A stretch of DNA of 32,000 bases from Nitrosopumilus maritimus SCM1 (GTDB taxonomy: Archaea > Thermoproteota > Nitrososphaeria > Nitrososphaerales > Nitrosopumilaceae), in assembly GCF_000018465.1 (NCBI RefSeq), contig NC_010085.1:120001-152000 (forward strand). Direction: 5' to 3'. The notes beneath the pieces are model-generated. The model saw nothing but the letters and a program-made list of their open reading frames with translations. It was not told the DNA's origin and searched no databases. Shown piece by piece: positions 1,900 to 29,395 of the stretch (the stretch's first letter is position 1; the number at the start of each line of letters is the position of its first letter). Both the position numbers and the translations under genes were made by a program.

Positions 1900-2988
1900 T
1901 TAATTACTAAACTTATTTACATTTTGAATTATTTTATCTACATCATTTTCAGAAAGGTTTGGATGTATGGGTAATGTGACAATTTTTGATGCTACAGATT
2001 CTGTTATTGGTAATTTTACTTTATTTTTATAAAATTTCATTTTATGTATGGGAGAATAATGAGTTCCTATTTCAATTCCTTTCTCAAATAATTTTTTCAT
2101 AAATTTTTCTCTATTATCAACCTGAATCCAGAAAAAGTGATATGAACAATCTTGAGAAAATGGCATTTTTTCTTCAAGATTGATTTCTGTTGAATATTGT
2201 TTCGCAATTTTTTTCCTAATTTTATTCATTTTATCGAGTTTCTTTAACTGTTCTAAACCGATCACAGCTGAAAATTCATTAAGATAAGCATTCCATCCCA
2301 ACTCTGTAATATCATATTGTGAGTTGTGCCTATTTGATATGCCACACCATCTTTTTATTTTTATTAAATTAGAATTTACTTTATTTTTTTTACCATTGAG
2401 TGTTATGGCTCCCCCATTCGGCATTGCCAAATTTTTTACAGGATGAAAACTAAAGCAAATCGCTTCACTTACAGTACCAATCTTTTTCTCTTTGTATTTT
2501 GCACCTGCTGCATGAGCAGCATCTTCAACAAGATTTATTTGATTTTCTTTACAAATTTTCCTAATTTTATCTAAATCTGCAGGAAATCCTCCAAAATGAA
2601 CTGGAATAATTACTTTGGTTTTTCTTGTAATGTGTTTTTTTATTTTTTCTACATCTATACACAATGTTTTAGGATCTACATCAACAAAAACTGGTTTAGC
2701 ATTGTTATATAATGCTGAATGTGCAGTTGATACAAAGGAAAGAGATGGCATAATTATTTCACTATTTTTTACATCAAACAATGATACAGCTAATTGAAGT
2801 GCTGATGTGCCATTGTTAACAGTAACACAACTATTTGAGCCAATGTACTCATTGAATTTTTTCTCAAATTTTTGTACATTCCCAACACCTGAACCCGATG
2901 CCCAATAACCACTTTTTAGAACTTTATTTATTGCAATTTCTTCTTTAGTTCCAATAATAGGATCAAAAAGTTTTATTCTTTTTTTCAT
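1900..2988 (-). CDS. DegT/DnrJ/EryC1/StrS-family PLP-dependent sugar aminotransferase (PseC-like)
   Basis: The length (362 aa), GSGVGNVQKFEKKF, LVEDAAHAAGA and FSFHPVKNL (PLP lysine) are typical of this family. A 4-bp start/stop overlap joins it to the downstream GNAT gene. Confidence 0.85.
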   Translation of the reverse strand: MKKRIKLFDPIIGTKEEIAINKVLKSGYWASGSGVGNVQKFEKKFNEYIGSNSCVTVNNGTSALQLAVSLFDVKNSEIIMPSLSFVSTAHSALYNNAKPVFVDVDPKTLCIDVEKIKKHITRKTKVIIPVHFGGFPADLDKIRKICKENQINLVEDAAHAAGAKYKEKKIGTVSEAICFSFHPVKNLAMPNGGAITLNGKKNKVNSNLIKIKRWCGISNRHNSQYDITELGWNAYLNEFSAVIGLEQLKKLDKMNKIRKKIAKQYSTEINLEEKMPFSQDCSYHFFWIQVDNREKFMKKLFEKGIEIGTHYSPIHKMKFYKNKVKLPITESVASKIVTLPIHPNLSENDVDKIIQNVNKFSN

Positions 2989-3404
2989 TTTAGATTTTTC
3001 TCTTTTACAAGTTCAAAAGTATATTGAATTAATTTAAATCCATTATTTTTATAGAATGTTATCAAACTTTTATTTTTATAATTTGTATTTGCTAGATACC
3101 TAGATTTTGGGTGTTTCTCTAGAATTAATTCCAATACATGATTCATATTTTTGTTAGAATCAAATTTTGGTAAAAAATGCATAGAAATTTCATCTTGTTT
3201 ACTAATATATGTAGAACCAATCTTTTTTTTATTTTCAAAAATAATATACCATTTTTGATAAGGTTTAGATTTGACAAACTTTGTATGTTCATTATAACTA
3301 GGCATATTCTTATGTGAAATATTTTCTAATGGTTTTCTTAATTTGAGAAGTTGATATAAAAATCGAATATCTTTCTCATCCACCAATTTTAAAATAATTG
3401 TCAT
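2985..3404 (-). CDS. GNAT-family N-acetyltransferase (PseH-like candidate)
   Basis: The protein is 139 aa. C-terminal NYKNKSLITFYKNNGFKLI matches the GNAT motif-B pattern N-x2-A/S-x3-Y-x-K-x-GF. It is translationally coupled to the aminotransferase. Confidence 0.6.
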   Translation of the reverse strand: MTIILKLVDEKDIRFLYQLLKLRKPLENISHKNMPSYNEHTKFVKSKPYQKWYIIFENKKKIGSTYISKQDEISMHFLPKFDSNKNMNHVLELILEKHPKSRYLANTNYKNKSLITFYKNNGFKLIQYTFELVKEKNLK

Positions 3405-5942: not shown

Positions 5943-7181
5943 TCATTTTTTTTCTACAAGTTTTGCTTGTAAGAATTTATTCACATAATCTAACAAAACA
6001 AAAAAATCTAAATTTAATTTTTCAGCAATTTCTACTATTGAATTATCTCCTTCAAATTCAAGAAAAATTTTTTCCAACATTTTATTTAATTCTAAATCAT
6101 CTCTCCAGTCTACCCATAATCCGTATTTTGAAAGGTGTGGTGGACCTTTAAATTTTCTAATTGGCGTGTAGTTATTTTCTAATGCCTCCAAAATCTTTAA
6201 AACCAATTTTTTAGATTCTTCTAAATTTTCTTTTTTTATAATTGAAATATTGTCATCACTGGTATGGTATTCTGGATATGGCCATCTGCTGATTGAAATC
6301 ATTGGTATGTTTACTCCTGGACCATTGAAAACCATTTCATCATTACTTATAATTTCACGGAAGTCTCCTGTTTTGAATTCTTTCTGATTATGTTTAATTA
6401 CATTCTCTGCAATTTTATCAATTTCAGTATTTTTTTGCCTACTAAATTGTAATGAATGAAAATTATCATTTCCTAACATTTCTAAAAATAATCCAAATTT
6501 CATGTCTGAAATTAATTCTTCATTTTGACTAAGATAAGCTATTGAACCTATTGTTTCAGGGAGGAATAAAATTCTGTAACTATATTTTAGATTATTTTTT
6601 TCTAAAAGATTTTTTCCTATATCTACTAAAACAGAAACGCCTGAAAGATCATCATTTGCCATTGCAGGATGGCATAAATGTGCAACAAGAACAATGGTTT
6701 CTTTTAATTCTCCTTTAACGAATAATTCTCCAATTTTTAATTCTCCTTCTTTAAATTCAGAATTTATAACTACATGGTAATTTTTTTCAGTAAAATCTTT
6801 TAATTTGTTAAATTGTACACAAAAACCCCAATCGTTCTGATAATATTTGTAATCAAATGGAATGGCATTTGGCCTTTCTTTATTTGATGATAAATGTTTC
6901 ATTAATTCTTCTTTAGAAATTATTTTATCAATTGGAGTAGAATATGATGCTAAATGAAGTGGATGATCTTTTACATCAATAATTTTCCCCCCATTATTTT
7001 CAATAAAAGCTTCTTTAACTTCCCATGCTAAGGGAACTTCCCATGTCCAACATTTTGTTCCCGAAGGAATTTTATGAATTTTTAAGGGTAGTATTTTTGA
7101 AATGTATTCAAGTGATTCATCATAATCTATTGAAACAAGATTTCTCTGTTTTTGATATAGATCATTAATTAAATTATACAC
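5943..7181 (-). CDS. Aminopeptidase-like (M28-like, DUF4910-type) protein of unknown role in glycan clusters
   Basis: VAHLCHPAMANDDLSGV resembles the conserved HP-x-ANDN-SG core I associate with DUF2172/DUF4910 proteins. The family assignment is from memory and its function is unknown. Confidence 0.5.
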   Translation of the reverse strand: MYNLINDLYQKQRNLVSIDYDESLEYISKILPLKIHKIPSGTKCWTWEVPLAWEVKEAFIENNGGKIIDVKDHPLHLASYSTPIDKIISKEELMKHLSSNKERPNAIPFDYKYYQNDWGFCVQFNKLKDFTEKNYHVVINSEFKEGELKIGELFVKGELKETIVLVAHLCHPAMANDDLSGVSVLVDIGKNLLEKNNLKYSYRILFLPETIGSIAYLSQNEELISDMKFGLFLEMLGNDNFHSLQFSRQKNTEIDKIAENVIKHNQKEFKTGDFREIISNDEMVFNGPGVNIPMISISRWPYPEYHTSDDNISIIKKENLEESKKLVLKILEALENNYTPIRKFKGPPHLSKYGLWVDWRDDLELNKMLEKIFLEFEGDNSIVEIAEKLNLDFFVLLDYVNKFLQAKLVEKK

Positions 7182-7274: not shown

Positions 7275-7622
7275 ATGATTTCAGTAGGTGTTGACATAGA
7301 AAAAATCAATAGATTTGAATCATTATTACCTGAATCTTCATTTATAAAAAAAATTTTCTCTCCTGAGGAAATTAAATACTGTTTTTCAAAAAAACACCCT
7401 GCAGAAACTTTAGCAGCAAAATTTGCAGGAAAAGAAGCTATTATTAAAGCATTAAATGGTTTAAACTATAAATCTAATTCTTATCATGAAATAGAGATTT
7501 TAAATAAAAATGATAATTCTCCTTATGTGAACTTGAAAAATTTTTTAAATTATCATATATCGATTAGTTTATCTCATTCTGATCAATATGCTATTGCATT
7601 TGTTTTAATTTTTAATAAATAA
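7275..7622 (+). CDS. acpS: Holo-[acyl-carrier-protein] synthase (AcpS-type 4'-phosphopantetheinyl transferase)
   Basis: The protein is 115 aa. GVDIEKINRF, FSPEEIKYC, AAKFAGKEAIIKAL and ISLSHSDQYAIAFV are all classic AcpS blocks in the correct order. Confidence 0.85.
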   Translation: MISVGVDIEKINRFESLLPESSFIKKIFSPEEIKYCFSKKHPAETLAAKFAGKEAIIKALNGLNYKSNSYHEIEILNKNDNSPYVNLKNFLNYHISISLSHSDQYAIAFVLIFNK

Positions 7623-7630
7623 GATTCTAA

Positions 7631-9448
7631 CTAGAGCTTGGAAATAAATTCAATAAATTTGTCTGTAGAATTATTTATGTGTGAAACATATTGTTTTAAA
7701 AATTTTTTTTGTTTTGCAAGTAAACTTTTTTCAAAATCTTTATCCTTTAGAATTTTTTCAATACTTTCATCTAATTCATTAATAGTTGAAACATGACATC
7801 CATTTTTTTCAAAAACAATTGGAGTTCCATAATATTCTTCTTTAATTCTAACTGAAATTACTGGTTTTTCAAATAATGTTCCTTCTAAAATAGTTGTAGA
7901 AAAATCTGTAACTATCATTAATCTACAATTATTAATCAATTCGTGAATATTGCCATCTTTTACAATACGTGCTTTTGGCATAGTCTTGGAAATACTCTTT
8001 CCTACATCTCTTTCTGACGGAGCAGGATGCAGTTTTACTACTAACTCTAAATTTAATTTTTTGATTATTTTTGCAATTTCTTCTATTGTTTTTTCATAAT
8101 TTAATATCTTTTTTGCTGAATAGTCAAAAATTTGATTATTAGTTAACCAAGAAGTTGTTAATAAAACATATTCCTTATTTTTACACTTAGAAAGGTTATC
8201 AAATACTGGATTTCCAACTTCGATAATTTTATTTTCATTAATTCCGTTTTCAGATGAAATCTTTCTAACAATATTACCCCATACACATATGTAATCTGAT
8301 TTAATGGGCCATACGCCATCAAATTTTTTTAAATTTAATGTCTCTCTACTTTCTGGTCCCATTCCGTGTTGTAACAAAATTATTGGAATTCCTTGTTTTT
8401 TGGCCAATTCTATTACAATTTGTTCGTTAAATCCTGATTCAGATAAAATAACCATTGAAGAAAACTGATATTTTTCAAATATTTGTTTTGCATAATCAAT
8501 TTCAGTAATTGCTTCAGGAATTCGTTTTTTACTCAAGTTGATGAGTTTGGGTTTTAATTCATCCCAAAAATTTATAGAATCTATTTCAAATAATTTTTTT
8601 AATTCACCTGAATTTTCAATTAAATTAATTATTTGTGAAACTTCAAAATCATTTTTTCTATATTTTTTGAAATTATTTTCTGATATGTAACTGCATTTTG
8701 AATCTTTTAAAATATTAATTGATTTTTTATTGATAAAAATTGGTCTTCTTCGATTGTATAAAATAAAATTAAATTTTTTTTGTGGATGTAAAAATAAATT
8801 TTGAAATTTGTTTAAATCAAATTCAACAAATAGTACTGACTTATTATTTTTTGAAATCCTTTTATCTACATCTAAAATCTTTTTCATAAAATTTTCTGAA
8901 AAATTTTTGATTTGTTTAATATTTTTTCTACTTAAATTAATTTTTAGATTCTGATTCCATATTTTTTTTGTTATGGGCAGTGAGTCGTATAAAAAATCTG
9001 AATTTTCTAATGATTCTGGATTTATACATTCAAAATCACTTGTGTGTTTTTTAATTATACTGATAAGATTTTTAGACGTAAAAATTTTATAGTTTTTATA
9101 TTCTTTACATATGTAATATATCTCAAACAATTTTTTTAAGAAAGGAATCATAAATGCATGAAATTCTATGTAGAATAAACCCCCTAAGTTAATACTATTG
9201 TATGTAATTTTTTCTGAAATTTCTGGTGTATTGTACCATTTTGCAATTTTATATGACTCTTTTTGAATTTTTATCAATAATTTTTGATCTAAAAAATCAT
9301 CTGAGATAAAATGTTCGATTTTTTCATCATTCAATTTTTTATGAATTTCGTAATCAACTGTAATGATTTTGGAATTAGACAATTCCAAATTTTTTATTTT
9401 GGAAATTTCTATTGAATTATCTATTATGATGATTTGATTAATGCTCAA
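7631..9448 (-). CDS. Large GT-B-fold protein; the C-terminal half resembles WecB/NeuC (Epimerase_2) or CDP/CMP-dependent transferases
   Basis: The C-terminal blocks EVGNPVFDNL, VVKLHPAPSE and RLMIVTDFSTTILEGTLFEKPVISVR are collinear with E. coli WecB as I remember it ([41 protein letters not shown]). The N-terminal ~330 aa is very AT-rich, Lys/Asn/Ile-rich, and shows no motif I recognise. It is paralogous to 15375-16670. Confidence 0.4.
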   Translation of the reverse strand: MSINQIIIIDNSIEISKIKNLELSNSKIITVDYEIHKKLNDEKIEHFISDDFLDQKLLIKIQKESYKIAKWYNTPEISEKITYNSINLGGLFYIEFHAFMIPFLKKLFEIYYICKEYKNYKIFTSKNLISIIKKHTSDFECINPESLENSDFLYDSLPITKKIWNQNLKINLSRKNIKQIKNFSENFMKKILDVDKRISKNNKSVLFVEFDLNKFQNLFLHPQKKFNFILYNRRRPIFINKKSINILKDSKCSYISENNFKKYRKNDFEVSQIINLIENSGELKKLFEIDSINFWDELKPKLINLSKKRIPEAITEIDYAKQIFEKYQFSSMVILSESGFNEQIVIELAKKQGIPIILLQHGMGPESRETLNLKKFDGVWPIKSDYICVWGNIVRKISSENGINENKIIEVGNPVFDNLSKCKNKEYVLLTTSWLTNNQIFDYSAKKILNYEKTIEEIAKIIKKLNLELVVKLHPAPSERDVGKSISKTMPKARIVKDGNIHELINNCRLMIVTDFSTTILEGTLFEKPVISVRIKEEYYGTPIVFEKNGCHVSTINELDESIEKILKDKDFEKSLLAKQKKFLKQYVSHINNSTDKFIEFISKL

Positions 9449-9567
9449 TATTCTTCACTTTTTATTTTCTTAATATCTAATAATGAATTTATCTTCATGT
9501 TTATAATGTAGTTGAAATAGTTCCATGTATGATTGCATGGAATATAGATTCTTTGAAGAGGTAAGAT

Positions 9568-10626
9568 ATGTCCAAAAAAGTTCAAATCCTTGACACTACA
9601 TTACGAGATGGCAGTTATTCTGTGAATTTTTCATTTACTAGTTCTGATACATCTATAATCTGTTCTAAATTGGAAAAATCTGGAATTAAATTAATTGAAG
9701 TTGGTCATGGACTTGGGTTTAATGCTTCTAACTCTGGTTATGGAAAATCTACACAATCTGATGAAGAATATATGATTGCTGCAAAAGAGTCTTTATCAAA
9801 ATCAATGTATGGAATGTTTTGTATTCCTGGAATTGCTAAACTATCTGATTTAGAACTTGCTAAAAAACATGGTATGGGATTTATTCGAGTAGGTACCGAT
9901 GTTACCAAAGTACATCAATCTGAAAAATTTATCAAAAAAGCAAAAAATCTTGGATTTTTTGTGGCCTCAAATTTTATGAAATCTTATGTAATGCCACCTG
10001 ATAAATTTGCATCAATTGTTAAACAATCTGAAGAATTTGGAACTGATATGGTGTATATTGTGGATTCTGCTGGAGGTATGTTTTCTTCAGATTTGTTAGA
10101 ATATTATAATTCAATAAGAAACGTATCTGAAATTCCACTTGGTTTTCATGGTCATGATAATTTAGGTATGGCAATTTCAAACAGTCTGTATGCTGCTGAT
10201 TTAGGTATGGAATACATAGATTCTTCTCTTCAGGGAATTGGAAGAAGTTCTGGAAATGCTTGTACTGAAGTTTTAGTTATGGCATTGAAGAAAAAAGGAT
10301 TCAAGATAGATGTTGATTTTCATAGTCTCTTTGAAGCAGGACAAGAATGTGTTTACCCATTAATCAATAATTCTAATAAATTACCCCTTGATATTGTTTC
10401 AGGTTATGCTGATTTTCATTCAAGTTATATGCATCATATAATGAAATATTCTTCCAAGTTTAAAGTTGATCCATTATTATTGATTATAGAATATTCTAAA
10501 ATTAATAAAATTGATATTGATGAAAAAAAATTAGAACAAATTGCTAAAAAATTAAAGAGAAAACAGGATATTTACACTGCAAAATACAGATTTAACAGAT
10601 ATGTCGGAAGAGAACAAGATAATTAA
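9568..10626 (+). CDS. HMGL-like (pyruvate carboxyltransferase domain) aldolase, DmpG/4-hydroxy-2-oxovalerate aldolase-like
   Basis: It has the N-terminal ILDTTLRDGSY signature, a later IVDSAGG, and FHGHDNLGMAISNSL (metal-binding His-x-His). An SD-like GAGGT lies about 6 nt upstream of the ATG. Confidence 0.75.
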   Translation: MSKKVQILDTTLRDGSYSVNFSFTSSDTSIICSKLEKSGIKLIEVGHGLGFNASNSGYGKSTQSDEEYMIAAKESLSKSMYGMFCIPGIAKLSDLELAKKHGMGFIRVGTDVTKVHQSEKFIKKAKNLGFFVASNFMKSYVMPPDKFASIVKQSEEFGTDMVYIVDSAGGMFSSDLLEYYNSIRNVSEIPLGFHGHDNLGMAISNSLYAADLGMEYIDSSLQGIGRSSGNACTEVLVMALKKKGFKIDVDFHSLFEAGQECVYPLINNSNKLPLDIVSGYADFHSSYMHHIMKYSSKFKVDPLLLIIEYSKINKIDIDEKKLEQIAKKLKRKQDIYTAKYRFNRYVGREQDN

Positions 10627-12058
10627 CTCAGAAACTATTAATCAAATTTTTTATGACATTTTTAAGAATAATTGGAATGAATATTTTATTTTTGACACAA
10701 TTACTCAGAAAAAAATAAAATATTCTGAATTTTATAATGAAATTCAATTATGTATTGACAAATTAACTAAAAATGGTATTACTGAAGGAAGTACTATATG
10801 TCTAATTCTAGAAAATTCATATAATTTTGTTAAAATAATCTTTTCTTGTATTTTTTCAAATTTAACTGTGGTTCCAATAGATCCACAAAAAGGATCTGAA
10901 GAAATTAAAGAAATTATTGATTCTGTTAATCCACAAACAATTATTTTTGACAATCAAAAAAATATTTTTTCTAAAAATTCAATAGAAATTAGTAAAATTG
11001 TAAATGACACACAATTTTCTAAACCTCAAAAACTTGAACAGATTAGAAATATTGATAGTGATAAGGATTTTCTTATTACTTTTACATCTGGCTCAACTGG
11101 TAAATCAAAAGGTGTTATCCATTCATTAAAAAATTTAATTCATTGTTCATTGTCATTTAATGAAAAATTTCATTTTAATTCAAAAAATGTGTTTTTGCAT
11201 TGTTTGCCGATGTCTTATATGGCTGGGATCTTAAATTCAATCATTTTACCCTTTATATCTAACAGCAAAATAGTCATCATTCCAAGATTTACTGTAAAAA
11301 CTGTACTTGATTTTTGGTCTATTCCACTAAAATACTCAGTCAACACCTTCTGGTTTACTCCTACAATGATTGGATTGATTTTAAAATTTGATAGAAAAAA
11401 CAAAATTGATTTGTCTGACAAAAATCTAATTGGCTGCGTGGCCACTTCTTCTTTAAATACATCTGTAAAGAACGATTTTGAAAAGAAATATGATATTGAA
11501 TTATTCGAAAGTTATGGATTGTCAGAACTTTTGTTTGTAAGTACAAACTCCCCAAATAATAATTCCTTTACAGCTGGACAACTTATTTCTGGTACTAACG
11601 TAAAATTTGATAATGATGAAATTTTGGTAAAAGTTCCATGGATGTTTAAAAAATATTTTAATTCCGAAAAAAATAATTTAGAAAATAATTATTTTTCTAC
11701 AGGAGATCTTGGAAAAATATCTAAAGATAATCTTTTAATCATTACTGGACGGAAAAAAGATTTGATTATCAAAGGTGGAATAAATATTAGTCCTAAAAAA
11801 ATTGAAGATTTTATACTTAATAAAAAATTTTTAAAGGAATGTGTTATTCTAGGTTTTCCTGATCCAATATTGGGTGAAAAAATTGTTTGTTTTATTTTAA
11901 AGAATTCAATAGATACTGATAGCAAAAAAGAACTAAATAAAAAAATTGTTGAACACTTAGGCAATGATTATCATATTGATGAATTTAAAGAACTAATAGA
12001 AATTCCTAAAAACATTAATGGAAAAATTGATAAAATTCAAATTAGAAATTTTTTTTAA
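10601..12058 (+). CDS. AMP-dependent synthetase/ligase (adenylating enzyme, DltA/acyl-ACP ligase-like)
   Basis: Adenylation core motifs are present: TFTSGSTGKSKGV (A3), YGLSE (A5), TGDLG (A7), GRKKDLIIKGGINISP (A8) and a C-terminal NGKIDK (A10 Lys). Its start overlaps the HMGL-like gene by 26 nt. Confidence 0.85.
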   Translation: MSEENKIINSETINQIFYDIFKNNWNEYFIFDTITQKKIKYSEFYNEIQLCIDKLTKNGITEGSTICLILENSYNFVKIIFSCIFSNLTVVPIDPQKGSEEIKEIIDSVNPQTIIFDNQKNIFSKNSIEISKIVNDTQFSKPQKLEQIRNIDSDKDFLITFTSGSTGKSKGVIHSLKNLIHCSLSFNEKFHFNSKNVFLHCLPMSYMAGILNSIILPFISNSKIVIIPRFTVKTVLDFWSIPLKYSVNTFWFTPTMIGLILKFDRKNKIDLSDKNLIGCVATSSLNTSVKNDFEKKYDIELFESYGLSELLFVSTNSPNNNSFTAGQLISGTNVKFDNDEILVKVPWMFKKYFNSEKNNLENNYFSTGDLGKISKDNLLIITGRKKDLIIKGGINISPKKIEDFILNKKFLKECVILGFPDPILGEKIVCFILKNSIDTDSKKELNKKIVEHLGNDYHIDEFKELIEIPKNINGKIDKIQIRNFF

Positions 12059-12141
12059 ATTTTAATTATCCAGAATTATTTTATATTTGAAACTAAATTT
12101 GTACATGAAAAATAGAAATATTACTAAAAATAGATAAAAGA

Positions 12142-12786
12142 ATGAATGAAATTATCGATTTGACTTATTCAATAAATGAAAAAATGATTACTTATCCTTC
12201 TCCATGGCATCCAAAAGTTTCTCTTGAACGATTAGGTAAAATTGAAGATGTTGGAAGAAATACTCGTAAATTGGTTCTTGGAACCCATACAGGAACTCAT
12301 ATTGATGCTCCTCTACATTTTATCCCTGATGGAAATAGTATAGAAAGTATTCCATTGGAGAAAATTACAGGTACAGTAACTATTTTGGATTTTACAAACT
12401 TGAAAAATAATCACCCAATTACAAAAGAAGAATTACAAGATAAAAAAATCTCAAAACGATTAATTTTTAGATTTGGTTGGCAGAAATATTGGAATACTCC
12501 TAATTTTTATAATGATTATCCATTTTTTACTGAAGATGCTGCAAATTATCTTGTTTCACAAGGTGTTGAATTGATTGGTTATGATACTCCTTCTCCTGAT
12601 AAAAGTAAACAAGATGATGTAGACTCTCCAATTCATAAGATCTTTTTAAGTAATCAAATTGTTCTGTTAGAATATTTATCAAATTTAGATTGTGTACAAA
12701 ATCTTGAAGGATGGAGTATTGTTGTTGCTCCAATGAAAATAGATGGTTCAGACGGTTCTCCTTCAAGAGTTTTTATTTTCAAGTAG
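12142..12786 (+). CDS. Cyclase-family protein (kynurenine formamidase-like metal hydrolase)
   Basis: HTGTHIDAPLHF matches the HxGTHxDxPxH motif of the putative cyclase/arylformamidase family. The protein is 214 aa. Confidence 0.7.
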   Translation: MNEIIDLTYSINEKMITYPSPWHPKVSLERLGKIEDVGRNTRKLVLGTHTGTHIDAPLHFIPDGNSIESIPLEKITGTVTILDFTNLKNNHPITKEELQDKKISKRLIFRFGWQKYWNTPNFYNDYPFFTEDAANYLVSQGVELIGYDTPSPDKSKQDDVDSPIHKIFLSNQIVLLEYLSNLDCVQNLEGWSIVVAPMKIDGSDGSPSRVFIFK

Positions 12787-12794
12787 GTGATTTT

Positions 12795-13049
12795 TTGACA
12801 ATATTGGAATGGTTGCTTGAATGGTTTGAAAATAATTCTGATCTAAAATCAAATGAAATTTTGAGTTCTTTAAATGAAGATTTTCTAATTAAAGGATGGA
12901 TAGACTCATTTACTTTTATAAATTTAATCACTGAAATAGAAGAAAAATATAAAATTTCTTTTAACACTGATGAATTACAAAATGAAAAATTTGCAACTTT
13001 AGATGGTTTAGCTAATATCATTGGAGATAGAATTGAAAAAAACTTATGA
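12795..13049 (+). CDS. Acyl/peptidyl carrier protein (ACP/DltC-like)
   Basis: The frame contains KGWIDSFTFINLITEIEEKY, a D-S phosphopantetheine attachment motif followed by an amphipathic helix. Starting at TTG 12795 gives ~85 aa with the Ser at residue 38, which is typical carrier-protein geometry. The track's ATG at 12711 would overlap the cyclase gene by 76 nt, so the start is uncertain. Confidence 0.7.
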   Translation: MTILEWLLEWFENNSDLKSNEILSSLNEDFLIKGWIDSFTFINLITEIEEKYKISFNTDELQNEKFATLDGLANIIGDRIEKNL

Positions 13050-13818
13050 TTTTACTAAGGAAGAAATTGTAACAAAACTAAAACAAATACAAATTAAAAA
13101 AAATGATTCTATATTTATCCATAGTAACTTAGGTCTTTTTGGAAAACTTCCAAATGTAAAAACTGCAGATGAATATTGTACAGTATTTAAAGATGCTATT
13201 TTTGATGTAATTGGAGAGGAAGGAACTTTAGTTATTCCAACCTTCTCATTATCTTTTTGCAAGAATGAGGTTTTTGATAAAAAATATACTCCTAGTTTTG
13301 AATGTGGAATTTTCTCTGAATTTATAAGAACTGATTCTTCTTCTCTTCGTTCTGACGATGCAAATTTTTCTATTGCTGCAATAGGTAAAAATGCAAAATT
13401 TTTTACAGAATTTTCTCCAATTGATTCCTTTGGGGTTGACTCTTTTTGGGAAAAATTTCTTAACGTAGATGGTAAATTATGTAGGTTTAATCTTCCTGCA
13501 AATTATGTAACTTTTATTCATTATATTGAAAAATTTTTGAATGTACCGTATAGATATGATAAAATCTTCTTAGGTTATTCCTTAATTGATGGTTTACAAA
13601 CTAAAAGAAAATTCTCACATTTTGTAAGAGACCTTTCAAATGAAAATCATTCCACAGATTTGACAAAATTGGAGAAGATTTCAATTGATTTAGGATTGCT
13701 TCATAAAACAAATCTTGGTCGTGGGCTGATTTATTCTATATCTTCACAGAGCTTATTCTCGTTGGTTAAAAGTGAAATTAGAAAAGATCCTTCATTATTA
13801 ATCACTGGGAAAATTTAG
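13021..13818 (+). CDS. AAC(3)-family (Antibiotic_NAT) N-acyltransferase-like protein
   Basis: IFIHSNLGLFG near the N-terminus and GTLVIPTFS resemble the (M/I)VHSSLSxxG and GTLxMPT blocks of aminoglycoside 3-N-acetyltransferases. TTG start, 29-nt overlap with the ACP gene. Confidence 0.6.
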   Translation: MEIELKKTYDFTKEEIVTKLKQIQIKKNDSIFIHSNLGLFGKLPNVKTADEYCTVFKDAIFDVIGEEGTLVIPTFSLSFCKNEVFDKKYTPSFECGIFSEFIRTDSSSLRSDDANFSIAAIGKNAKFFTEFSPIDSFGVDSFWEKFLNVDGKLCRFNLPANYVTFIHYIEKFLNVPYRYDKIFLGYSLIDGLQTKRKFSHFVRDLSNENHSTDLTKLEKISIDLGLLHKTNLGRGLIYSISSQSLFSLVKSEIRKDPSLLITGKI

Positions 13819-14257
13819 TCCACTTTTCCCAGTTATAATCCTCAAAGTTTACATTCTCCATTTCATTATCATTTGGTTTCCATGAAATATCAGCTAAAGT
13901 AAGAATACTTGAAATATTTTCTGATAAGTTGATGTGAGCTGATGGGACATTTTTTGGAATATATACCATCTTCGGATTATTTTCATCTGCCAATATCTCA
14001 GTGTATTTCCCATTTTCTTTTACAATAAAAATAACTTTTCCCTTAATACATACAAAACAACTATTTCGTTTTTTATGTAGATGTGGACCTTTAATTCCTC
14101 TTGGATGTACTGAACTAACATATACCATCTTCGGATCATTTTCAATGAATTTATCCCAGTCTCTCCATATCACTGACAATGTTCCATTAATTTTATTTGA
14201 TCTAGTATCTTTTGTAGGATGAGTTTCTAATGGTATTTCTTTAATCTTACTGTTCAT
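13802..14257 (-). CDS. Small cupin-fold protein (RmlC/FdtA/WbuC-like sugar epimerase or isomerase candidate)
   Basis: The protein is 151 aa. PRGIKGPHLHKKRNSCFVCIKGKV...VYIPKNVPSAHIN shows cupin motifs 1 and 2 (G-x-H-x-H ... P-x-x-x-x-H). It sits next to the PseB-like dehydratase, and its 3' end overlaps the convergent gene by 17 nt. Confidence 0.5.
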   Translation of the reverse strand: MNSKIKEIPLETHPTKDTRSNKINGTLSVIWRDWDKFIENDPKMVYVSSVHPRGIKGPHLHKKRNSCFVCIKGKVIFIVKENGKYTEILADENNPKMVYIPKNVPSAHINLSENISSILTLADISWKPNDNEMENVNFEDYNWEKWTKFSQ

Positions 14258-15374: not shown

Positions 15375-16670
15375 ATGAAAATTCTAGTCCCTACCTCTGT
15401 TTTACCTGAAAAAAAAGGTCTTAGATTCAATTTCATTTCAAATATTGTTGATTCAGTGAGAAAAAATAACGATGTAAAAATAATTTGGGTTATATATCAA
15501 CCAGATAAAATTTTAAAAAAAGATACGTCTGAGAATCAAATTTTAGATATACATGATTTTAAGAATGCTATAGATTTAGTTGAAAAATCAAACCCTGATT
15601 GCATTATGGTTGGACAAGAATTGGAACCTATTCAACATTCTTTAAGTTTAGCTGCTAAGAAATTTAATGTACCATTAATCAGTTTTTTCTATAATAATTT
15701 TGAAATAACAAATTCAAATATGTTGGAAAGAAAAAAACAACTTTTATCTTATTTGAGAATTATTCTTTCAAGTAGAGTCCCATCAGATTCATCACATAAA
15801 GGATTTTTAAGAAGATTTAGATTTATTTTATTTAAATTAAATTTTTTAAAAAATACGAAATCATCTCTTAACATGTCTGATTTTAATAACTTCTTTTTTG
15901 TTTTTAAAGAACTTTTTAGTTATTTAACAAAAAAAGAAATAGATGTAAATATTTTTCCTGATCTTTTTCTTTTACCCGATAATTCATGGAATAAAAAATT
16001 ATTATCATTAGGAATTCCTGAAAAAAAATTTGCAGTTGTTGGTAATCCAATTCTAGATGAATTGTATGATAAATCTAAAATAATTAAACAATATTATAAA
16101 AATGATAAAATCTCGATTTTGATTGTTACAGATGCTTTAGTTGAACATGGAATTTGGAGTAGAACTCAAATGACTTATTTTTTTACTGCGCTAATTAAAC
16201 AATTAATTAAAAACCAAAATTTTACTTTTTCTTTAAAAATTCATCCATCATCTGAAAATAAAATTATTTATGAAAAATTATTAAATAAAAATAATGTCTC
16301 GTCTAAAATTTACCAACATGAAAATATTTTGGAAATTATTGAAAAATTTGATATAGTTATTTCTTATGGAATATCTACAATTCATACTGAAATTGCATTG
16401 TTAGGAATGAAAATGTTACTTTTGGATCTGAATTTTAATTTTCCACTTGGTTATTTTGTTAAAGAAGGAATAGAATGCGGAAATATCATCAAATGTCAAA
16501 ATTTTGAATACATGAATAAACAAATTAAACAACTTGTTGACTCGAAATTAGAAAATTTCAGTACTTTTGAGAAAGAACGCAAAAATCTGATTTTTGGTTT
16601 TGATGGATTATCTAGTAAAAGAGCTGCTGACGCTGTACAACAAATTCTTAAAAATAGGGATCAATTATGA
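15375..16670 (+). CDS. GT-B-fold protein, paralogue of the C-terminal half of 7631-9448
   Basis: VVGNPILDELYD, SLKIHPSSEN and DIVISYGISTIHTEIALLGMKMLLLD align block for block with EVGNPVFDNL, VKLHPAPSE and LMIVTDFSTTILEGTLFEKPVISV of the 605-aa protein. Function is unresolved: a NeuC/PseG-like UDP-sugar hydrolase/epimerase or a CMP/CDP-donor transferase. Confidence 0.4.
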   Translation: MKILVPTSVLPEKKGLRFNFISNIVDSVRKNNDVKIIWVIYQPDKILKKDTSENQILDIHDFKNAIDLVEKSNPDCIMVGQELEPIQHSLSLAAKKFNVPLISFFYNNFEITNSNMLERKKQLLSYLRIILSSRVPSDSSHKGFLRRFRFILFKLNFLKNTKSSLNMSDFNNFFFVFKELFSYLTKKEIDVNIFPDLFLLPDNSWNKKLLSLGIPEKKFAVVGNPILDELYDKSKIIKQYYKNDKISILIVTDALVEHGIWSRTQMTYFFTALIKQLIKNQNFTFSLKIHPSSENKIIYEKLLNKNNVSSKIYQHENILEIIEKFDIVISYGISTIHTEIALLGMKMLLLDLNFNFPLGYFVKEGIECGNIIKCQNFEYMNKQIKQLVDSKLENFSTFEKERKNLIFGFDGLSSKRAADAVQQILKNRDQL

Positions 16671-24052: not shown

Positions 24053-24142
24053 ACACTAAATTTTTTCATGTACTAATTTCTATTATATGTGAGATTTATA
24101 CCAAGAATATAATAGGTAGAAATTATTAAAAAAATTACGTTG

Positions 24143-25516
24143 ATGGAAAAAAAGATTGATTTCAAGCCTGATTCTTATTTGATTCGTTCTGGAAACAATT
24201 TTTTGGGAATTTTAAATGATATTAAACGAAGACCAGAAGATGCTGCAAATGAATTGGGTGTTTCTATTGAAGAAATTAACTCAATAATTTCTGGAAAGCA
24301 AAAAATCTCCCCATCTTTAATTGAAAAAGCCGTAAATATCTGGCCAGTTAATGAAAGAGATTTCTATATTGTTTCCGATGATTGTTCTTCTGGAATCTTA
24401 ATTATGACTTCTCAAGATTCAATCAAATCATCTCGCATTATGGAAAGAGCTGGAAAACCATATTATGAATATCGAGATACTGCTATGAGCAAAACTGCTC
24501 CTTTTAGGCCTGAATGGATTTTGGAATTATGCAAAGTTGAAAATAATGACCCTGAAAATCCAAAAGCGCAATGGAATAATGGACATTTCATGCATCAATT
24601 TACATATTTTATCGGAGAAGTAAATTTCTATTACAAAGATCCTGAAGGAAAAAAACATGTCGCAATTATGAATACTGGTGATTCAATGTATATTACTCCA
24701 TTTACTCCTCACACCTTTACTACAAGAGATGGTGCATCTCAAAATGGTTTAATTTTAGCATTAACTTATGGGAGTAAACTTACTGGTGATATTCAGCAAG
24801 AATTGTCGTCATTATCGCTTGATTGTGGAAGTCAATATGCATTAGATTTTACTAATCACGAAAATGCCAGTTTATCATTATTAGAATATTATTTTGAATT
24901 ATCAAATCTGACTAAAGAAAAATTTGCAAAACGAACAAACTTTTCTATGGAAACACTTGCTGATTTCTTTACAAAAAAGAAATTACCAACTTTTGATGAA
25001 CTTAAGATTATTGCTAAAGCTCTAAATGTAAATTCTAGAGATTTAATGCCTAATGATTTGACTGAATCTAAAGTTATTGTAAAAACTCATGATCAATGTG
25101 ATCATTGGAAATACCCTGAATCTGGAAATTATGAATTTTACGAACTTGCATCAACCACCGCTTTGCCTCACTCCAAAGCATTTGAAATTGATGTTTCATC
25201 ATCAGAAGATCTCAATCTTGATCTGAAAGTTGGATTACATCAATATGTGTATAATATTGGCGATTCTGCACTGACAATTAATTGGAATTATGAGAATAAA
25301 ACATATCAGAAATCATTGAATCCTGGCGATTCTGCTTATATCAAACCTTTTGTTCCTCACAATTTCCGTGGAAATGGCAAAATTCTAATTTTGAGAATTG
25401 GTGGAAAAATTTCTGGTGATTCACAACGAGAATTATCATTTGTAGGAAGGGAAAATACTCAACGAGCAATTTCTGAAACAATGCAATGGTTTGATCCAAA
25501 AGGTTCAAACTCTTAA
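24143..25516 (+). CDS. mpnS: Methylphosphonate synthase (non-heme Fe(II) 2-hydroxyethylphosphonate oxygenase, HEPD/HppE family)
   Basis: The architecture is a tandem (HTH-like + cupin) x2. Numbering from ATG 24143, the metal ligands are His148 (24584-24586), Gln152 (24596-24598) and His190 (24710-24712). Phe162 and Ile184 are also present, matching my recollection of the published N. maritimus MPnS structure. It is clustered with ppm, ppd and an Fe-ADH. The track's TTG at 24140 adds one residue and is probably not the start. Confidence 0.9.
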   Translation: MEKKIDFKPDSYLIRSGNNFLGILNDIKRRPEDAANELGVSIEEINSIISGKQKISPSLIEKAVNIWPVNERDFYIVSDDCSSGILIMTSQDSIKSSRIMERAGKPYYEYRDTAMSKTAPFRPEWILELCKVENNDPENPKAQWNNGHFMHQFTYFIGEVNFYYKDPEGKKHVAIMNTGDSMYITPFTPHTFTTRDGASQNGLILALTYGSKLTGDIQQELSSLSLDCGSQYALDFTNHENASLSLLEYYFELSNLTKEKFAKRTNFSMETLADFFTKKKLPTFDELKIIAKALNVNSRDLMPNDLTESKVIVKTHDQCDHWKYPESGNYEFYELASTTALPHSKAFEIDVSSSEDLNLDLKVGLHQYVYNIGDSALTINWNYENKTYQKSLNPGDSAYIKPFVPHNFRGNGKILILRIGGKISGDSQRELSFVGRENTQRAISETMQWFDPKGSNS

Positions 25517-25546
25517 TTTTAATTATAGTTATCTAAATTTCATTTT

Positions 25547-26671: not shown

Positions 26672-26672
26672 T

Positions 26673-27416
26673 TTATTTAAATAATTCTTCAGCTCTGTTT
26701 AGATCCTGTTTTGTATCAATTTCACACCATTTACCTGAAATGAATATTGGTGAAACTTGAATTGAATTATTAATTAATTCTTGAATCATATCTGTTAGAT
26801 ATCCTTTTTCTAAAGAAACTGCATTATGGAATTTTCCCGTATGGTTTTTTTGTAAGTAATCAATTTTTTCTAAAAATACTTTTGTTCCATGTTCACTCAT
26901 TTTTATAATTCCTAGAAATTCCCCAACAATATTTGAAGTACTTTGAATATTCTTTTTAATTTCAACAATGTTATTTTTTTTATCTAACAATACATTCTCT
27001 GCTTCAGAAAATGGATGTTCTGTTCTCCCTTCATAAGATTTTTTCCAGTCTAAATCAATTGCAATAGCAATATCTTTTGTTGTGTTAAGTATTTGATGAA
27101 TAATATTTTCATCAAAAATTATATCCGAATACAAAATTATTACTTCTCCTTGTAAGAAATTTTTAGCCACCATCAAACTTCCTAAAATATCATGCTTTTC
27201 ATTTTCAAAATCTTTGACTATTTTCATTCCTTTATTATCAAATTGATTATGTTTTCCTGAAATAACTATGATTTCTGAAATATTATTTGATTCAAATGCT
27301 TTAATTTGTCTCTCTAAGATAGTTTTTCCATTTACAGGAATTAGTGATTTTGGAATTTCTTTAAATTCTTTCGAAATTCTTTGACCTTTTCCTGCTGCAA
27401 TTATGATTACTTTCAT
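26673..27416 (-). CDS. Nucleotidyltransferase (NTP_transferase fold, LicC/PntC-like; candidate phosphonate cytidylyltransferase)
   Basis: It has the N-terminal MKVIIIAAGKGQRIS (G-x-G-x-R) signature and is 247 aa. It is the last gene of the ppm-ppdA-ppdB operon, with a 7-nt gap. The substrate is inferred from context only. Confidence 0.7.
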   Translation of the reverse strand: MKVIIIAAGKGQRISKEFKEIPKSLIPVNGKTILERQIKAFESNNISEIIVISGKHNQFDNKGMKIVKDFENEKHDILGSLMVAKNFLQGEVIILYSDIIFDENIIHQILNTTKDIAIAIDLDWKKSYEGRTEHPFSEAENVLLDKKNNIVEIKKNIQSTSNIVGEFLGIIKMSEHGTKVFLEKIDYLQKNHTGKFHNAVSLEKGYLTDMIQELINNSIQVSPIFISGKWCEIDTKQDLNRAEELFK

Positions 27417-27423
27417 GAATATT

Positions 27424-29349: not shown

Positions 29350-29379
29350 TTCAATCAGTTATGCTTAGCAAATAATTTA

Positions 29380-29395
29380 ATCTATTATAATAGAT
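29380..29395. promoter_or_regulatory. Perfect 16-bp palindrome ATCTATTATAATAGAT in the 62-bp divergent ppm/pdh intergenic region; candidate bidirectional TATA element or operator
   Basis: I verified that the sequence is its own reverse complement. Its TTATAA centre lies about 24 nt upstream of the pdh ATG (29412) and about 38 nt upstream of the ppm ATG (29349), which is compatible with archaeal TATA spacing. There is no experimental support. Confidence 0.35.

What the first reader, a model, noticed from the sequence alone, without database searches (positions are those of the whole stretch)
7275..13818. Carrier-protein-dependent acylation cassette (AcpS + aldolase + AMP-ligase + hydrolase + ACP + AAC(3)-like) inside the sugar cluster
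Six adjacent genes encode a self-contained load-and-transfer system. These are a PPTase (AcpS), an adenylating enzyme of DltA-like size, an ~85-aa carrier protein with a D-S38 attachment site, and an aminoglycoside-3-N-acetyltransferase-like protein that could pass the acyl group to an amino sugar. An HMGL-like aldolase could build the acid from pyruvate, and a cyclase-family hydrolase completes the set. As far as I know, ACP and AcpS are absent from most archaea, whose fatty-acid metabolism is ACP-independent. A dedicated ACP/AcpS pair in a glycan island is therefore unusual and suggests bacterial origin. I know of no characterised pathway with this exact combination. The simplest hypothesis is N-acylation of the diamino-NulO (or another amino sugar) with a short hydroxy- or keto-acid, in a Dlt-like manner.
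Basis: partly seen in the sequence, partly recalled or inferred. Interest (0 to 1): 0.7.

Follow-up and report, generated by a model that had tools for sequence, protein, structure and literature searches.

The report
Carrier-protein acylation cassette for surface sugars
This stretch of the Nitrosopumilus maritimus genome carries a widely shared but biochemically untested gene set that most likely builds a small unusual acid, loads it on a dedicated carrier protein and swaps it onto an amino group of a sialic-acid-like surface sugar.

Summary
The window is N. maritimus SCM1, genes Nmar_0137 to Nmar_0144. They are not six adjacent genes. A 605-aa transferase-like gene on the opposite strand separates AcpS from the other five. 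A seventh conserved partner, the DUF4910 protein at 5943-7181, was left out.

In 76 non-redundant related loci from many bacterial and archaeal phyla, aldolase, ligase, cyclase, ACP and NAT occur together in 41. DUF4910 joins them in 37. These loci usually sit beside NeuB, CMP-transferase, PseB or DegT genes. Natural fusions (ligase-cyclase, ACP-NAT, NAT-DUF4910) tie the parts into one chain. An AcpS inside the cluster is enriched in archaea and CPR bacteria.

Best reading: an ACP-dependent N-acyl exchange module for a nonulosonic acid. It resembles the genetically implicated but uncharacterised Cj1295-Cj1297 genes of Campylobacter jejuni. The acyl group is unknown; I infer it comes from a pyruvate aldol product. 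The aldolase has an invariant swapped catalytic pair relative to DmpG. The ligase is of the acyl-CoA-synthetase type, not the DltA type. Bacterial origin is not shown. No biochemistry exists for any step. I rate it a new variant of a known kind, of moderately high interest.

The parts
5943..7181 (-). DUF4910/DUF2172 M28-like protein (Nmar_0137). It is the conserved partner of the NAT. Proposed role: it exposes the acceptor amine by de-N-acylation.
   Evidence: Pfam DUF4910 315 bits. E=1.7e-81 to PDB 3k9t, CA_C2195. Present in 63 of 76 related loci. Fused to the NAT in 12 of the related loci and in 7 of 7 long representatives tested. The C. jejuni homologue Cj1295 is required for an N5-acyl variant of pseudaminic acid (PMC3068675, PMC6321876).
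7275..7622 (+). AcpS-type 4'-phosphopantetheinyl transferase (Nmar_0138), 115 aa.
   Evidence: PF01648 70 bits; TIGR00516 64.9 bits, above its 59.8 cut-off. An AcpS inside the cluster occurs in 5 of 8 archaeal/CPR loci against 1 of 68 other bacterial loci, Fisher p=1.8e-5. It lies directly upstream of the aldolase in Nitrosopumilus sp. S6.
7631..9448 (-). 605-aa LIC12162/Epimerase_2-like putative glycan transferase (Nmar_0139). It interrupts the cassette and is not a core member.
   Evidence: TIGR04331 at 1e-9 and PF02350 35 bits; PF27859. Homologues sit next to the cassette only in L011, L013 and L063.
9568..10626 (+). DmpG-like class II (metal-dependent) pyruvate aldolase, 352 aa (Nmar_0140), with a swapped catalytic pair.
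   Evidence: NF006049 280 bits; E=1.4e-50 to DmpG 1nvm. Arg13, Asp14, His194 and His196 are kept. DmpG His21 aligns with Tyr17 and DmpG Tyr291 with His284, invariant in 46 of 46 cassette aldolases. It never occurs without the cyclase.
10601..12058 (+). ANL-family adenylating enzyme, 485 aa (Nmar_0141). Proposed acyl-ACP ligase.
   Evidence: PF00501 144 bits plus PF13193. Closest NCBIfam models are FadD, MenE and malonyl-CoA-synthase types, all below their cut-offs. The A4 region reads HxLPMxYMAG. Fused to the cyclase domain in L076 and L080.
12142..12786 (+). Cyclase-family (kynurenine-formamidase/isatin-hydrolase fold) metal hydrolase, 214 aa (Nmar_0142).
   Evidence: PF04199 107 bits. The HxGTHxDxPxH motif is conserved across 57 orthologues. 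Nearest solved structures are kynurenine formamidases and isatin hydrolases.
12795..13049 (+). 84-aa acyl carrier protein (WP_187146545.1) with attachment Ser38.
   Evidence: TTG start after AGGTGA. Asp37-Ser38 are conserved in 98% and 100% of 59 orthologues. The profile hits 58 PDB carrier proteins, with ACP and DltC at the top. The single-sequence AF2 model has a helical ACP-like secondary-structure pattern, with Ser38 at the N-terminus of helix 38-52, but low confidence at pLDDT 63. Fused to the NAT in Saprospiraceae and Ignavibacteriales.
13033..13818 (+). AAC(3)-fold N-acyltransferase, 261 aa (Nmar_0144). Proposed acyl-ACP:aminosugar N-acyltransferase.
   Evidence: PF02522 98 bits; far below the cut-offs of the AAC(3) resistance equivalogs. 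His163 and Glu166 (100% and 98% conserved) align with the conserved H..E of BA2930 and YokD. 167 representatives at E<=1e-30.

Best explanation
The locus encodes a carrier-protein-dependent N-acyl exchange module for a nonulosonic-acid (pseudaminic/legionaminic-type) surface sugar.

Proposed steps, all inferred and none shown biochemically:
1. AcpS converts the 84-aa apo-carrier to its holo form at Ser38.
2. The DmpG-like metal aldolase condenses pyruvate with a small aldehyde to give a 4-hydroxy-2-oxo acid.
3. The cyclase-family metal hydrolase works together with the ligase. Most likely it opens or closes a lactone or amide form of that acid so that a free carboxylate is available.
4. The ANL ligase adenylates the acid and thioesterifies it to holo-ACP.
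5. The DUF4910 protein frees the acceptor amine by removing the resident N-acetyl group. This is by analogy with Cj1295.
6. The AAC(3)-fold enzyme transfers the acyl group from ACP to that amine.
7. NeuB, the CMP-transferase and the transferase-like genes of the island then use the sugar.

N. maritimus carries a reduced form of the cassette. Most relatives have two further genes, a VOC/glyoxalase-fold protein and a SAM methyltransferase.
For: **Family assignments:**

**Synteny.** In 76 non-redundant loci seeded by NAT homologues:
- NAT 66, DUF4910 63, ligase 59, ACP 59, cyclase 58, aldolase 46.
- All five of aldolase, ligase, cyclase, ACP and NAT occur together in 41, and with DUF4910 in 37.
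- NeuB lies within 10 kb in 33, and some sugar-nucleotide gene in 48.

**Gene fusions that chain the parts**
- Ligase-cyclase in L076 and L080.
- ACP-NAT in P0096, P0116, P0142 and five loci.
- NAT-DUF4910 in 12 loci. About 47 of the best 150 NAT representatives are 466-705 aa long, and 7 of 7 long ones tested carry DUF4910.
- A MaoC-NAT fusion (P0251) fits a thioester-borne acyl donor.

**Conservation of key residues**
- ACP Asp37-Ser38 are conserved in 98% and 100% of 59 orthologues; AcpS catalytic residues are conserved.
- NAT His163 and Glu166 align with the AAC(3) H..E pair.

**Modular behaviour**
- Aldolase and cyclase are lost together in variants that keep ligase, ACP, NAT and DUF4910. 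This marks them as the acid-supply arm.

**AcpS distribution**
- An AcpS inside the cluster is enriched where the host is expected to lack its own: archaea and CPR bacteria, p=1.8e-5.
- Nitrosopumilus sp. S6 has the same arrangement.

**Genetic precedent**
- Cj1295 (DUF2172/DUF4910) is required for 5-N-(2,3-di-O-methylglyceroyl)-pseudaminic acid. Its authors proposed that it removes the 5-N-acetyl group (PMC3068675).
- The neighbouring Cj1296/7 is annotated as aminoglycoside N3'-acetyltransferase (PMC3025981).
- The C. acetobutylicum homologue CA_C2195 sits with an ACP, aminosugar N-acetyltransferases and NeuB (PMC4000134).
Against: - No biochemical or glycan-structure data exist for N. maritimus or for any member of the cassette.
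- The acyl group cannot be named.
- The aldolase lacks DmpG's His21/Tyr291 arrangement, so its reaction may differ.
- The structural paper on CA_C2195 found no recognisable peptidase active site (PMC4000134), so a deacetylase role for DUF4910 is a hypothesis.
- In the window, DUF4910 and AcpS are on other transcription units than the five-gene block.
- A weak GNAT-like ORF (2985-3404) could supply ordinary N-acetylation, so which amine is targeted is open.
- NeuB lies within 10 kb in only 33 of 76 loci. The acceptor could therefore be a 6-deoxy-amino-hexose rather than the nine-carbon sugar.
- The loci were ascertained through the NAT, so the co-occurrence figures describe this NAT subfamily only.
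Confidence: 0.62

Rival explanations
1. The cassette acylates a different amino sugar of the island. One candidate is the UDP-2-acetamido-3- or 4-amino-2,x,6-trideoxyhexose made by the neighbouring PseB-like, FdtA-like and DegT enzymes, used as such in the glycan rather than as a NulO precursor or CMP-NulO.
For: - In the window the NAT abuts an FdtA-like cupin and a PseB-like dehydratase.
- PseB or DegT lie near the cassette in 29 of 76 loci.
- NeuB is not always within 10 kb: 33 of 76.
- Unusual N-acyl groups are common on 3- and 4-amino-6-deoxyhexoses (own knowledge).
Against: - The FdtA homologue is found next to the cassette only in N. maritimus.
- PseB and DegT are themselves the first NulO-pathway enzymes.
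- NeuB and CMP-transferase are the most frequent sugar neighbours.
- The C. jejuni precedent is a pseudaminic acid (PMC3068675).
Confidence: 0.17
2. The NAT is an ordinary acetyl-CoA-dependent N-acetyltransferase that stands in for PseH. The aldolase, ligase, cyclase and ACP make a separate product, such as an O-acyl or lipid-like substituent.
For: - Characterised members of the AAC(3) fold, for example the aminoglycoside acetyltransferases, use acyl-CoA donors (own knowledge; the solved relatives appear).
- A few loci have NAT and DUF4910 without ligase or ACP: L044, L046, L051 and L060.
Against: - ACP-NAT fusions occur in several lineages.
- ACP and NAT reading frames overlap by 17 nt in the window.
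- ACP is detected in 59 of 76 loci by phmmer. An ACP profile finds it in 72 of the 82 loci, duplicates included.
- No other acyltransferase is conserved in the cassette.
Confidence: 0.1
3. This is a Dlt-like aminoacylation. The ligase activates an amino acid such as D-alanine, the carrier is a DltC analogue, and the sugar receives an aminoacyl group.
For: - The carrier profile's best PDB hits include D-alanyl carrier proteins.
- NCBIfam DltC scores 9e-6.
- A class I/II aminotransferase accompanies the cassette in about 10 loci.
- D-alanyl NulO derivatives are known (own knowledge).
Against: - The ligase A4 region is HxLPMxYMAG, the acyl-CoA-synthetase type, with no Asp for an alpha-amino group.
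- The best NCBIfam matches are FadD, MenE and malonyl-CoA synthase.
- N. maritimus has no such aminotransferase inside the cassette.
- The aldolase and cyclase would have no role.
Confidence: 0.06
4. The cassette makes a small secondary metabolite unrelated to glycans and only happens to lie in the island.
For: Carrier protein, PPTase and adenylating enzyme are hallmarks of natural-product clusters.
Against: - There is no ketosynthase, condensation or thioesterase domain.
- 48 of 76 loci have sugar-nucleotide genes within 10 kb.
- The NAT is fused to DUF4910, a family tied to glycan modification (PMC4000134, PMC3068675).
Confidence: 0.03

Closest known systems
Campylobacter jejuni NCTC 11168 flagellin-glycosylation genes Cj1295 (DUF2172/DUF4910 'aminopeptidase') and Cj1296/7 ('aminoglycoside N3'-acetyltransferase')
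   Same: - It has the same pair of families, AAC(3)-fold NAT and DUF4910, in a nonulosonic-acid locus.
- Cj1295 is genetically required for replacing the 5-N-acetyl group of pseudaminic acid with a 2,3-di-O-methylglyceroyl group (PMC3068675, PMC3025981, PMC6321876).
   Different: - The acid-supply arm differs. No DmpG-like aldolase or cyclase is reported there.
- From memory, that locus also holds ACPs (Cj1299, Cj1304, Cj1308), an adenylating enzyme (Cj1307) and FabH2. I did not verify this here.
- Neither enzyme has been characterised biochemically. A 2026 paper still calls cj1295 a putative transferase (PMC13130089).
Clostridium acetobutylicum CA_C2195 neighbourhood (PDB 3k9t)
   Same: - The window's DUF4910 protein matches 3k9t at E=1.7e-81.
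- That gene sits with an ACP (CA_C2198), aminosugar N-acetyltransferases, NeuB and a cytidylyltransferase-type gene (PMC4000134).
   Different: - The partner there is an ATP-grasp ligase and an acetyltransferase-HAD protein, not aldolase, ANL ligase and cyclase.
- The authors left its function as 'modified carbohydrate biosynthesis'.
Vibrio cholerae O1 tetronate arm (wbeK-O / rfbK-O)
   Same: - It N-acylates an amino sugar (perosamine) with a short hydroxy acid.
[quoted passage not shown]
- That wbeK/rfbK is an ACP and wbeL an AMP-ligase is from memory.
   Different: - The acceptor is different (GDP-perosamine).
- The transferase family is different.
- There is no aldolase, cyclase, DUF4910 or AcpS inside the cluster.
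DltA/DltC D-alanylation
   Same: It follows the same logic: adenylate, then a dedicated ~80-aa carrier, then transfer to a cell-surface polymer. The carrier profile resembles DltC.
   Different: - The ligase pocket is not of the amino-acid type.
- The transferase is a soluble AAC(3)-fold enzyme, not the MBOAT DltB.
- The product is an amide on a sugar amine rather than an ester on teichoic acid.
DmpG/BphI 4-hydroxy-2-oxovalerate aldolases
   Same: - It shares the TIM-barrel fold, the metal ligands and the pyruvate-binding Arg.
- E=1.4e-50 to 1nvm.
   Different: - It falls below the equivalog cut-off (256 against 286 bits).
- The positions aligned with DmpG His21 and Tyr291 carry Tyr17 and His284, an exchange that is invariant in the cassette clade. 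That these two DmpG residues are catalytic is from memory.
- No DmpF dehydrogenase partner is present.
- The context is biosynthetic, not catabolic.
AAC(3) aminoglycoside resistance acetyltransferases, YokD, FrbF
   Same: It shares the fold and the conserved His..Glu pair.
   Different: - It scores 67 bits against a 270-bit cut-off for the AAC(3) equivalog.
- It is fused or adjacent to ACP and DUF4910.
- The predicted donor is acyl-ACP, not acetyl-CoA.

Membership tests
AcpS-type phosphopantetheinyl transferase | Protein of about 120 aa matching PF01648/TIGR00516 above cut-off, with conserved Mg-binding acidic residues and a catalytic Lys. | tested here: met
   PF01648 70.2 bits against 25. 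TIGR00516 64.9 bits against 59.8. Asp7, Glu9, Lys53-Glu54 and Lys58 are conserved among the 7 AcpS genes found inside clusters.
Acyl/peptidyl carrier protein (PF00550) | A helical protein of about 80 aa with the Asp-Ser attachment motif at the start of helix II. | tested here: met
   Asp37-Ser38 are conserved in 98% and 100% of 59 orthologues. The profile hits 58 PDB carrier proteins. The AF2 secondary-structure pattern fits but confidence is low, pLDDT 63.
Acyl/peptidyl carrier protein (PF00550) | Pfam gathering score reached by the single sequence. | tested here: not met
   20.2 bits against a 20.8 cut-off. The fusion protein P0142 reaches 26.8 bits.
Acyl/peptidyl carrier protein (PF00550) | Ser38 is actually phosphopantetheinylated. 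| not testable with these tools
   This needs MS of the protein co-expressed with Nmar_0138.
ANL adenylate-forming enzymes | PF00501 plus PF13193, with the core motifs (TSGSTGxxKG, GRxKD, C-terminal catalytic Lys). | tested here: met
   143.9 and 34.6 bits. TFTSGSTGKSKG, GRKKDLIIKGG and PKNINGKIDK can be read directly in the translation.
DltA / amino-acid-activating adenylation domains | An A4 motif of the FDxS type with the Asp that binds the alpha-amino group. | tested here: not met
   The region reads H-x-L-P-M-x-Y-M-A-G in 50 cassette ligases. That the Asp is a defining feature comes from my own knowledge.
4-hydroxy-2-oxovalerate aldolase DmpG (TIGR03217 equivalog) | Score above the equivalog cut-off. 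| tested here: not met
   255.9 bits against 286. The broader subfamily NF006049 is met, 280 against 229.
4-hydroxy-2-oxovalerate aldolase DmpG (TIGR03217 equivalog) | Metal ligands Asp, His and His, and the Arg that binds pyruvate. | tested here: met
   Arg13, Asp14, His194 and His196 are invariant in 46 of 46.
4-hydroxy-2-oxovalerate aldolase DmpG (TIGR03217 equivalog) | Catalytic His21 and Tyr291 (DmpG numbering), and a DmpF acylating dehydrogenase partner. | tested here: not met
   Tyr17 and His284 occupy these positions, invariant in 46 of 46. No DmpF-like gene is in the window. The DmpG_comm domain is below cut-off, 22.7 against 27.
Kynurenine formamidase (TIGR03035) | Equivalog score. 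| tested here: not met
   95.5 bits against 223. The protein belongs only to the wider PF04199 family, 107 bits. The HxGTHxDxPxH metal motif is present.
AAC(3) aminoglycoside N-acetyltransferase (NF033082) | Equivalog score, and activity on aminoglycosides. | tested here: not met
   67.5 bits against 270. Only the Pfam fold family PF02522 is met, 98 bits. Aminoglycoside activity was not tested.
Cj1295/CA_C2195-type NAT + DUF4910 glycan-modification pair | A DUF4910/DUF2172 protein together with an AAC(3)-fold NAT in a nonulosonic-acid locus. | tested here: met
   Both are in the window: 5943-7181 and 13033-13818. NeuB (two copies), CMP-transferases, PseB-like and DegT genes are present. The pair is adjacent or fused in most relatives.
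Cj1295/CA_C2195-type NAT + DUF4910 glycan-modification pair | A non-acetyl N-acyl group on the NulO that depends on these genes. | not testable with these tools
   I found no glycan structure for N. maritimus. No paper cites Nmar_0138 or Nmar_0140 to Nmar_0144.

The most novel reading that the evidence does not exclude
The cassette defines a widespread, cross-domain and so far uncharacterised pathway of N-acyl exchange on nonulosonic acids. A DUF4910 enzyme removes an N-acetyl group. An AAC(3)-fold enzyme then installs an acyl group delivered on a dedicated ACP. In N. maritimus this would give a previously undescribed N-acyl substituent derived from a 4-hydroxy-2-oxo acid on the cell surface of a very abundant marine archaeon. 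It would also give DUF4910 its first function. Acyl-ACP-dependent sugar acylation would then be the native job of the fold that gave rise to AAC(3) antibiotic-resistance enzymes.
Probability: 0.35. Interest if true: 0.78.

Novelty: new variant of a known kind. Interest (0 to 1): 0.6.

Why it matters
- Non-acetyl N-acyl groups on pseudaminic and legionaminic acids shape recognition of bacterial and archaeal surfaces by phages and immune systems. The enzymes that install them are largely unknown, as PMC5378307 states.
- This locus offers a compact, recurrent and testable gene set for such a modification.
- It suggests a job for DUF4910 (solved structure, unknown function) and for a large non-resistance clade of AAC(3)-fold enzymes.
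- It explains why an archaeon that should not need ACP carries an ACP/AcpS pair.
- It sits in a low-GC glycan island of a model ammonia oxidiser. Strain-level variation there is likely to matter for virus-host interactions in the ocean.

Tried and rejected
- **Literature on the locus.** A search for Nmar_0138 and Nmar_0140 to Nmar_0144 found no papers. A search for a DmpG-type aldolase together with pseudaminic or legionaminic acid found none. A search for ACP/AcpS in Nitrosopumilus found nothing relevant. A search for N. maritimus glycan composition found nothing.
- **Lombard et al. 2012** on ACP-independent archaeal fatty-acid synthesis is not held. The statement that most archaea lack ACP/AcpS rests on my own knowledge.
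- **SAR11 as the source.** I considered this at first because of the low GC and the mpnS-like genes. The exact match to N. maritimus SCM1 rejects it.
- **HMG-CoA-lyase-type supply of acetoacetate** for 3-hydroxybutyryl groups. Rejected because the protein matches DmpG at 1e-83 but HMG-CoA lyase only at 5e-11.
- **An oxygen-dependent VOC dioxygenase step.** Judged unlikely because many hosts are strict anaerobes, and N. maritimus lacks that gene anyway.
- **Single-sequence AF2 of the carrier.** It gave only pLDDT 63, so I ran no fold search on it.
- **PDB search with the ligase** found nothing at E<=1e-30.
- **Direction of horizontal transfer.** It could not be resolved from identity rankings.

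Full report
**Source and observation**

The NAT, ligase and six other proteins of the region match Nitrosopumilus maritimus SCM1 exactly. They are Nmar_0137 to Nmar_0142, WP_187146545.1 (the carrier) and Nmar_0144.

| Gene | Coordinates | Family evidence |
|---|---|---|
| AcpS | 7275-7622 (+) | PF01648, TIGR00516 |
| DmpG-like aldolase | 9568-10626 (+) | HMGL-like, NF006049 |
| ANL ligase | 10601-12058 (+) | PF00501, PF13193 |
| Cyclase-family hydrolase | 12142-12786 (+) | PF04199 |
| Carrier protein, 84 aa | 12795-13049 (+) | TTG start behind AGGTGA |
| AAC(3)-fold NAT | 13033-13818 (+) | PF02522 |

Two corrections are needed.
- A 605-aa LIC12162/Epimerase_2-like gene on the minus strand (7631-9448) separates AcpS from the rest. 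Only aldolase to NAT form one tight block.
- The DUF4910 protein at 5943-7181 (-), outside the reported span, turns out to be a core partner.

**The surrounding island**

The window is a low-GC (23-33%) glycan island. It holds:
- two NeuB genes, a PseB-like dehydratase and a DegT aminotransferase;
- two CMP-type cytidylyltransferases, GFO/IDH oxidoreductases and a class III aminotransferase;
- sulfatases and a phosphonate cluster.

**Conservation**

A search with the NAT found 161 close relatives. Gene neighbourhoods of several showed the same set in Ignavibacteriales, Saprospiraceae and Babeliales.

A scan of one genome per species returned 75 loci. They come from Micrarchaeota, Aenigmatarchaeota, Methanobacterium, CPR bacteria, Planctomycetes, Bacteroidota, Lachnospiraceae, Oceanospirillum, Roseibium/Labrenzia, SAR86, Elusimicrobia and others.

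I searched their six-frame ORFs with the window's proteins. In 76 non-redundant loci the counts were:

| Gene | Loci (of 76) |
|---|---|
| NAT | 66 |
| DUF4910 | 63 |
| Ligase | 59 |
| ACP | 59 |
| Cyclase | 58 |
| Aldolase | 46 |
| Aldolase, ligase, cyclase, ACP and NAT together | 41 |
| The same five plus DUF4910 | 37 |
| NeuB within 10 kb | 33 |
| Any sugar-nucleotide gene within 10 kb | 48 |

- The canonical order is aldolase, ligase, VOC-fold protein, methyltransferase, cyclase, ACP, NAT, DUF4910. N. maritimus lacks the VOC-fold protein and the methyltransferase, as does its closest relative contig L084.
- Cassette proteins of N. maritimus are 45-62% identical to those of Methanobacterium, Micrarchaeota, Planctomycetes and Ignavibacteriales. 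The unit has therefore moved between domains, but the direction is unresolved.

**Functional coupling**

Natural gene fusions link the parts:
- ligase-cyclase in L076 and L080;
- ACP-NAT in P0096, P0116, P0142 and five loci, all keeping the Asp-Ser motif;
- NAT-DUF4910 in 12 loci.

About 47 of the best 150 NAT representatives are 466-705 aa long. All seven long ones I tested are NAT-DUF4910 fusions. A MaoC-NAT fusion also exists.

Aldolase and cyclase behave as one arm. The aldolase never occurs without the cyclase, and variants that keep ligase, ACP, NAT and DUF4910 lose both together.

An AcpS inside the cluster occurs in 5 of 8 archaeal/CPR loci against 1 of 68 other bacterial loci, p=1.8e-5. 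It also occurs in Nitrosopumilus sp. S6 and a related metagenome contig. This fits a cassette that brings its own PPTase into hosts that lack one.

**Sequence-level checks**

- **Carrier.** Asp37-Ser38 are conserved in 98% and 100% of 59 orthologues. A profile hits only carrier proteins in the PDB. Single-sequence AF2 gives a helical ACP-like pattern at low confidence.
- **NAT.** His163 and Glu166 align with the conserved H..E of AAC(3)-fold structures. The protein is far below the resistance-enzyme cut-offs.
- **Ligase.** It has all ANL core motifs but an acyl-CoA-synthetase-type A4 region. This argues against an amino-acid substrate.
- **Aldolase.** It keeps DmpG's metal ligands and Arg. Tyr replaces DmpG His21 and His replaces DmpG Tyr291, invariant in 46 of 46. 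There is no DmpF partner.
- **Cyclase.** It keeps the HxGTHxDxPxH metal site of kynurenine formamidase and isatin hydrolase.

**Literature**

- DUF4910 is CA_C2195 (PDB 3k9t), and the window protein matches it at E=1.7e-81. Its authors noted neighbours including an ACP, aminosugar N-acetyltransferases and NeuB. They proposed a role in modified carbohydrate synthesis (PMC4000134).
- In C. jejuni, Cj1295 of the same family (PMC6321876) is required for 5-N-(2,3-di-O-methylglyceroyl)-pseudaminic acid. It was proposed to remove the 5-N-acetyl group (PMC3068675).
- Its neighbour Cj1296/7 is annotated as aminoglycoside N3'-acetyltransferase (PMC3025981).
- A 2026 study still treats cj1295 as a putative transferase (PMC13130089).
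- ACPs and ligases in flagellin glycosylation islands are a known general theme (PMC4875605).
- I found no paper on this cassette or on these N. maritimus genes.

**Mechanism**

I commit to an ACP-dependent N-acyl exchange on a nonulosonic-acid pathway intermediate. The steps are:
1. AcpS primes the carrier.
2. The aldolase, with the cyclase, supplies a pyruvate-derived 4-hydroxy-2-oxo acid.
3. The ligase loads that acid on the carrier.
4. DUF4910 exposes the amine.
5. The NAT transfers the acyl group.

The gene set, synteny and fusions are shown. Every catalytic step, the acceptor and the acyl group are inferred.

The main rival is acylation of a 6-deoxy-amino-hexose rather than the nine-carbon sugar. 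Weaker rivals are a plain acetyl-CoA NAT, a Dlt-like aminoacylation and an unrelated small metabolite.

**Verdict**

It needs three changes: the adjacency claim is corrected, DUF4910 is added, and the Dlt analogy and the bacterial-origin claim are weakened.

It is a new variant of a known kind, namely carrier-dependent acyl decoration of surface sugars. The gene set is well defined, widespread and experimentally tractable.

Noticed in passing
window 24140-30347: A phosphonate cluster. It comprises an HTH+cupin protein of 458 aa (MpnS/HepD-like architecture), two sulfatases, a nucleotidyltransferase, a split TPP decarboxylase (27424-28453), PEP mutase (28450-29349) and an Fe-alcohol dehydrogenase (29412-30347). 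From my own knowledge this looks like the known N. maritimus methylphosphonate locus. It lies next to the glycan island.
   Followed up: partly
window 7631-9448 (-) and 15375-16670 (+): Two paralogous LIC12162/Epimerase_2-like proteins of 605 and 431 aa. They may be GT-B-type transferases for the modified sugar. A homologue sits beside AcpS in Micrarchaeota locus L013 and beside the cassette in Methanobacterium locus L011.
   Followed up: partly
related loci, e.g. L006 7966-9302, L011, L013, L086 7609-9095: Most cassettes elsewhere carry two extra genes between ligase and cyclase: a ~215-aa VOC/glyoxalase-fold protein (48 loci) and a ~230-aa SAM methyltransferase (31 loci). N. maritimus and contig L084 lack both, so their product should be a simpler, unmethylated version.
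   Followed up: partly
L003 and L017 (Babeliales): A variant arm in which a NicX-like protein and a class I/II aminotransferase replace aldolase and cyclase upstream of ligase, ACP, NAT and DUF4910. This suggests interchangeable acid-supply modules feeding a constant transfer module.
   Followed up: no
window 13802-14257 (-): An FdtA/WxcM-like cupin (a putative 3,4-ketoisomerase) overlaps the NAT stop by 17 nt, convergent with it. It is found next to the cassette only in N. maritimus. With the PseB-like gene it could mean that a 3-amino sugar is also made here.
   Followed up: no
window 2985-3404 (-): A 139-aa ORF that overlaps the DegT stop, with only a weak GNAT match (Acetyltransf_4, E=0.021). 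It may be a divergent PseH-like N-acetyltransferase.
   Followed up: no
L002 12583-14298 and cluster c14 (7 loci): FkbH_N-like proteins, which load glyceryl units in polyketide systems, occur beside NAT/DUF4910 in several loci. This hints at glyceroyl-ACP as an alternative donor, in line with the N-glyceroyl NulOs known from Campylobacter and Tannerella.
   Followed up: no
window 1-32000: GC is only 23-33% across the whole window and lowest (23-26%) from 3 to 13 kb. This fits a horizontally exchanged, strain-variable surface-glycan island. Nitrosopumilus sp. S6 carries a rearranged version flanked by similar sulfatases.
   Followed up: partly
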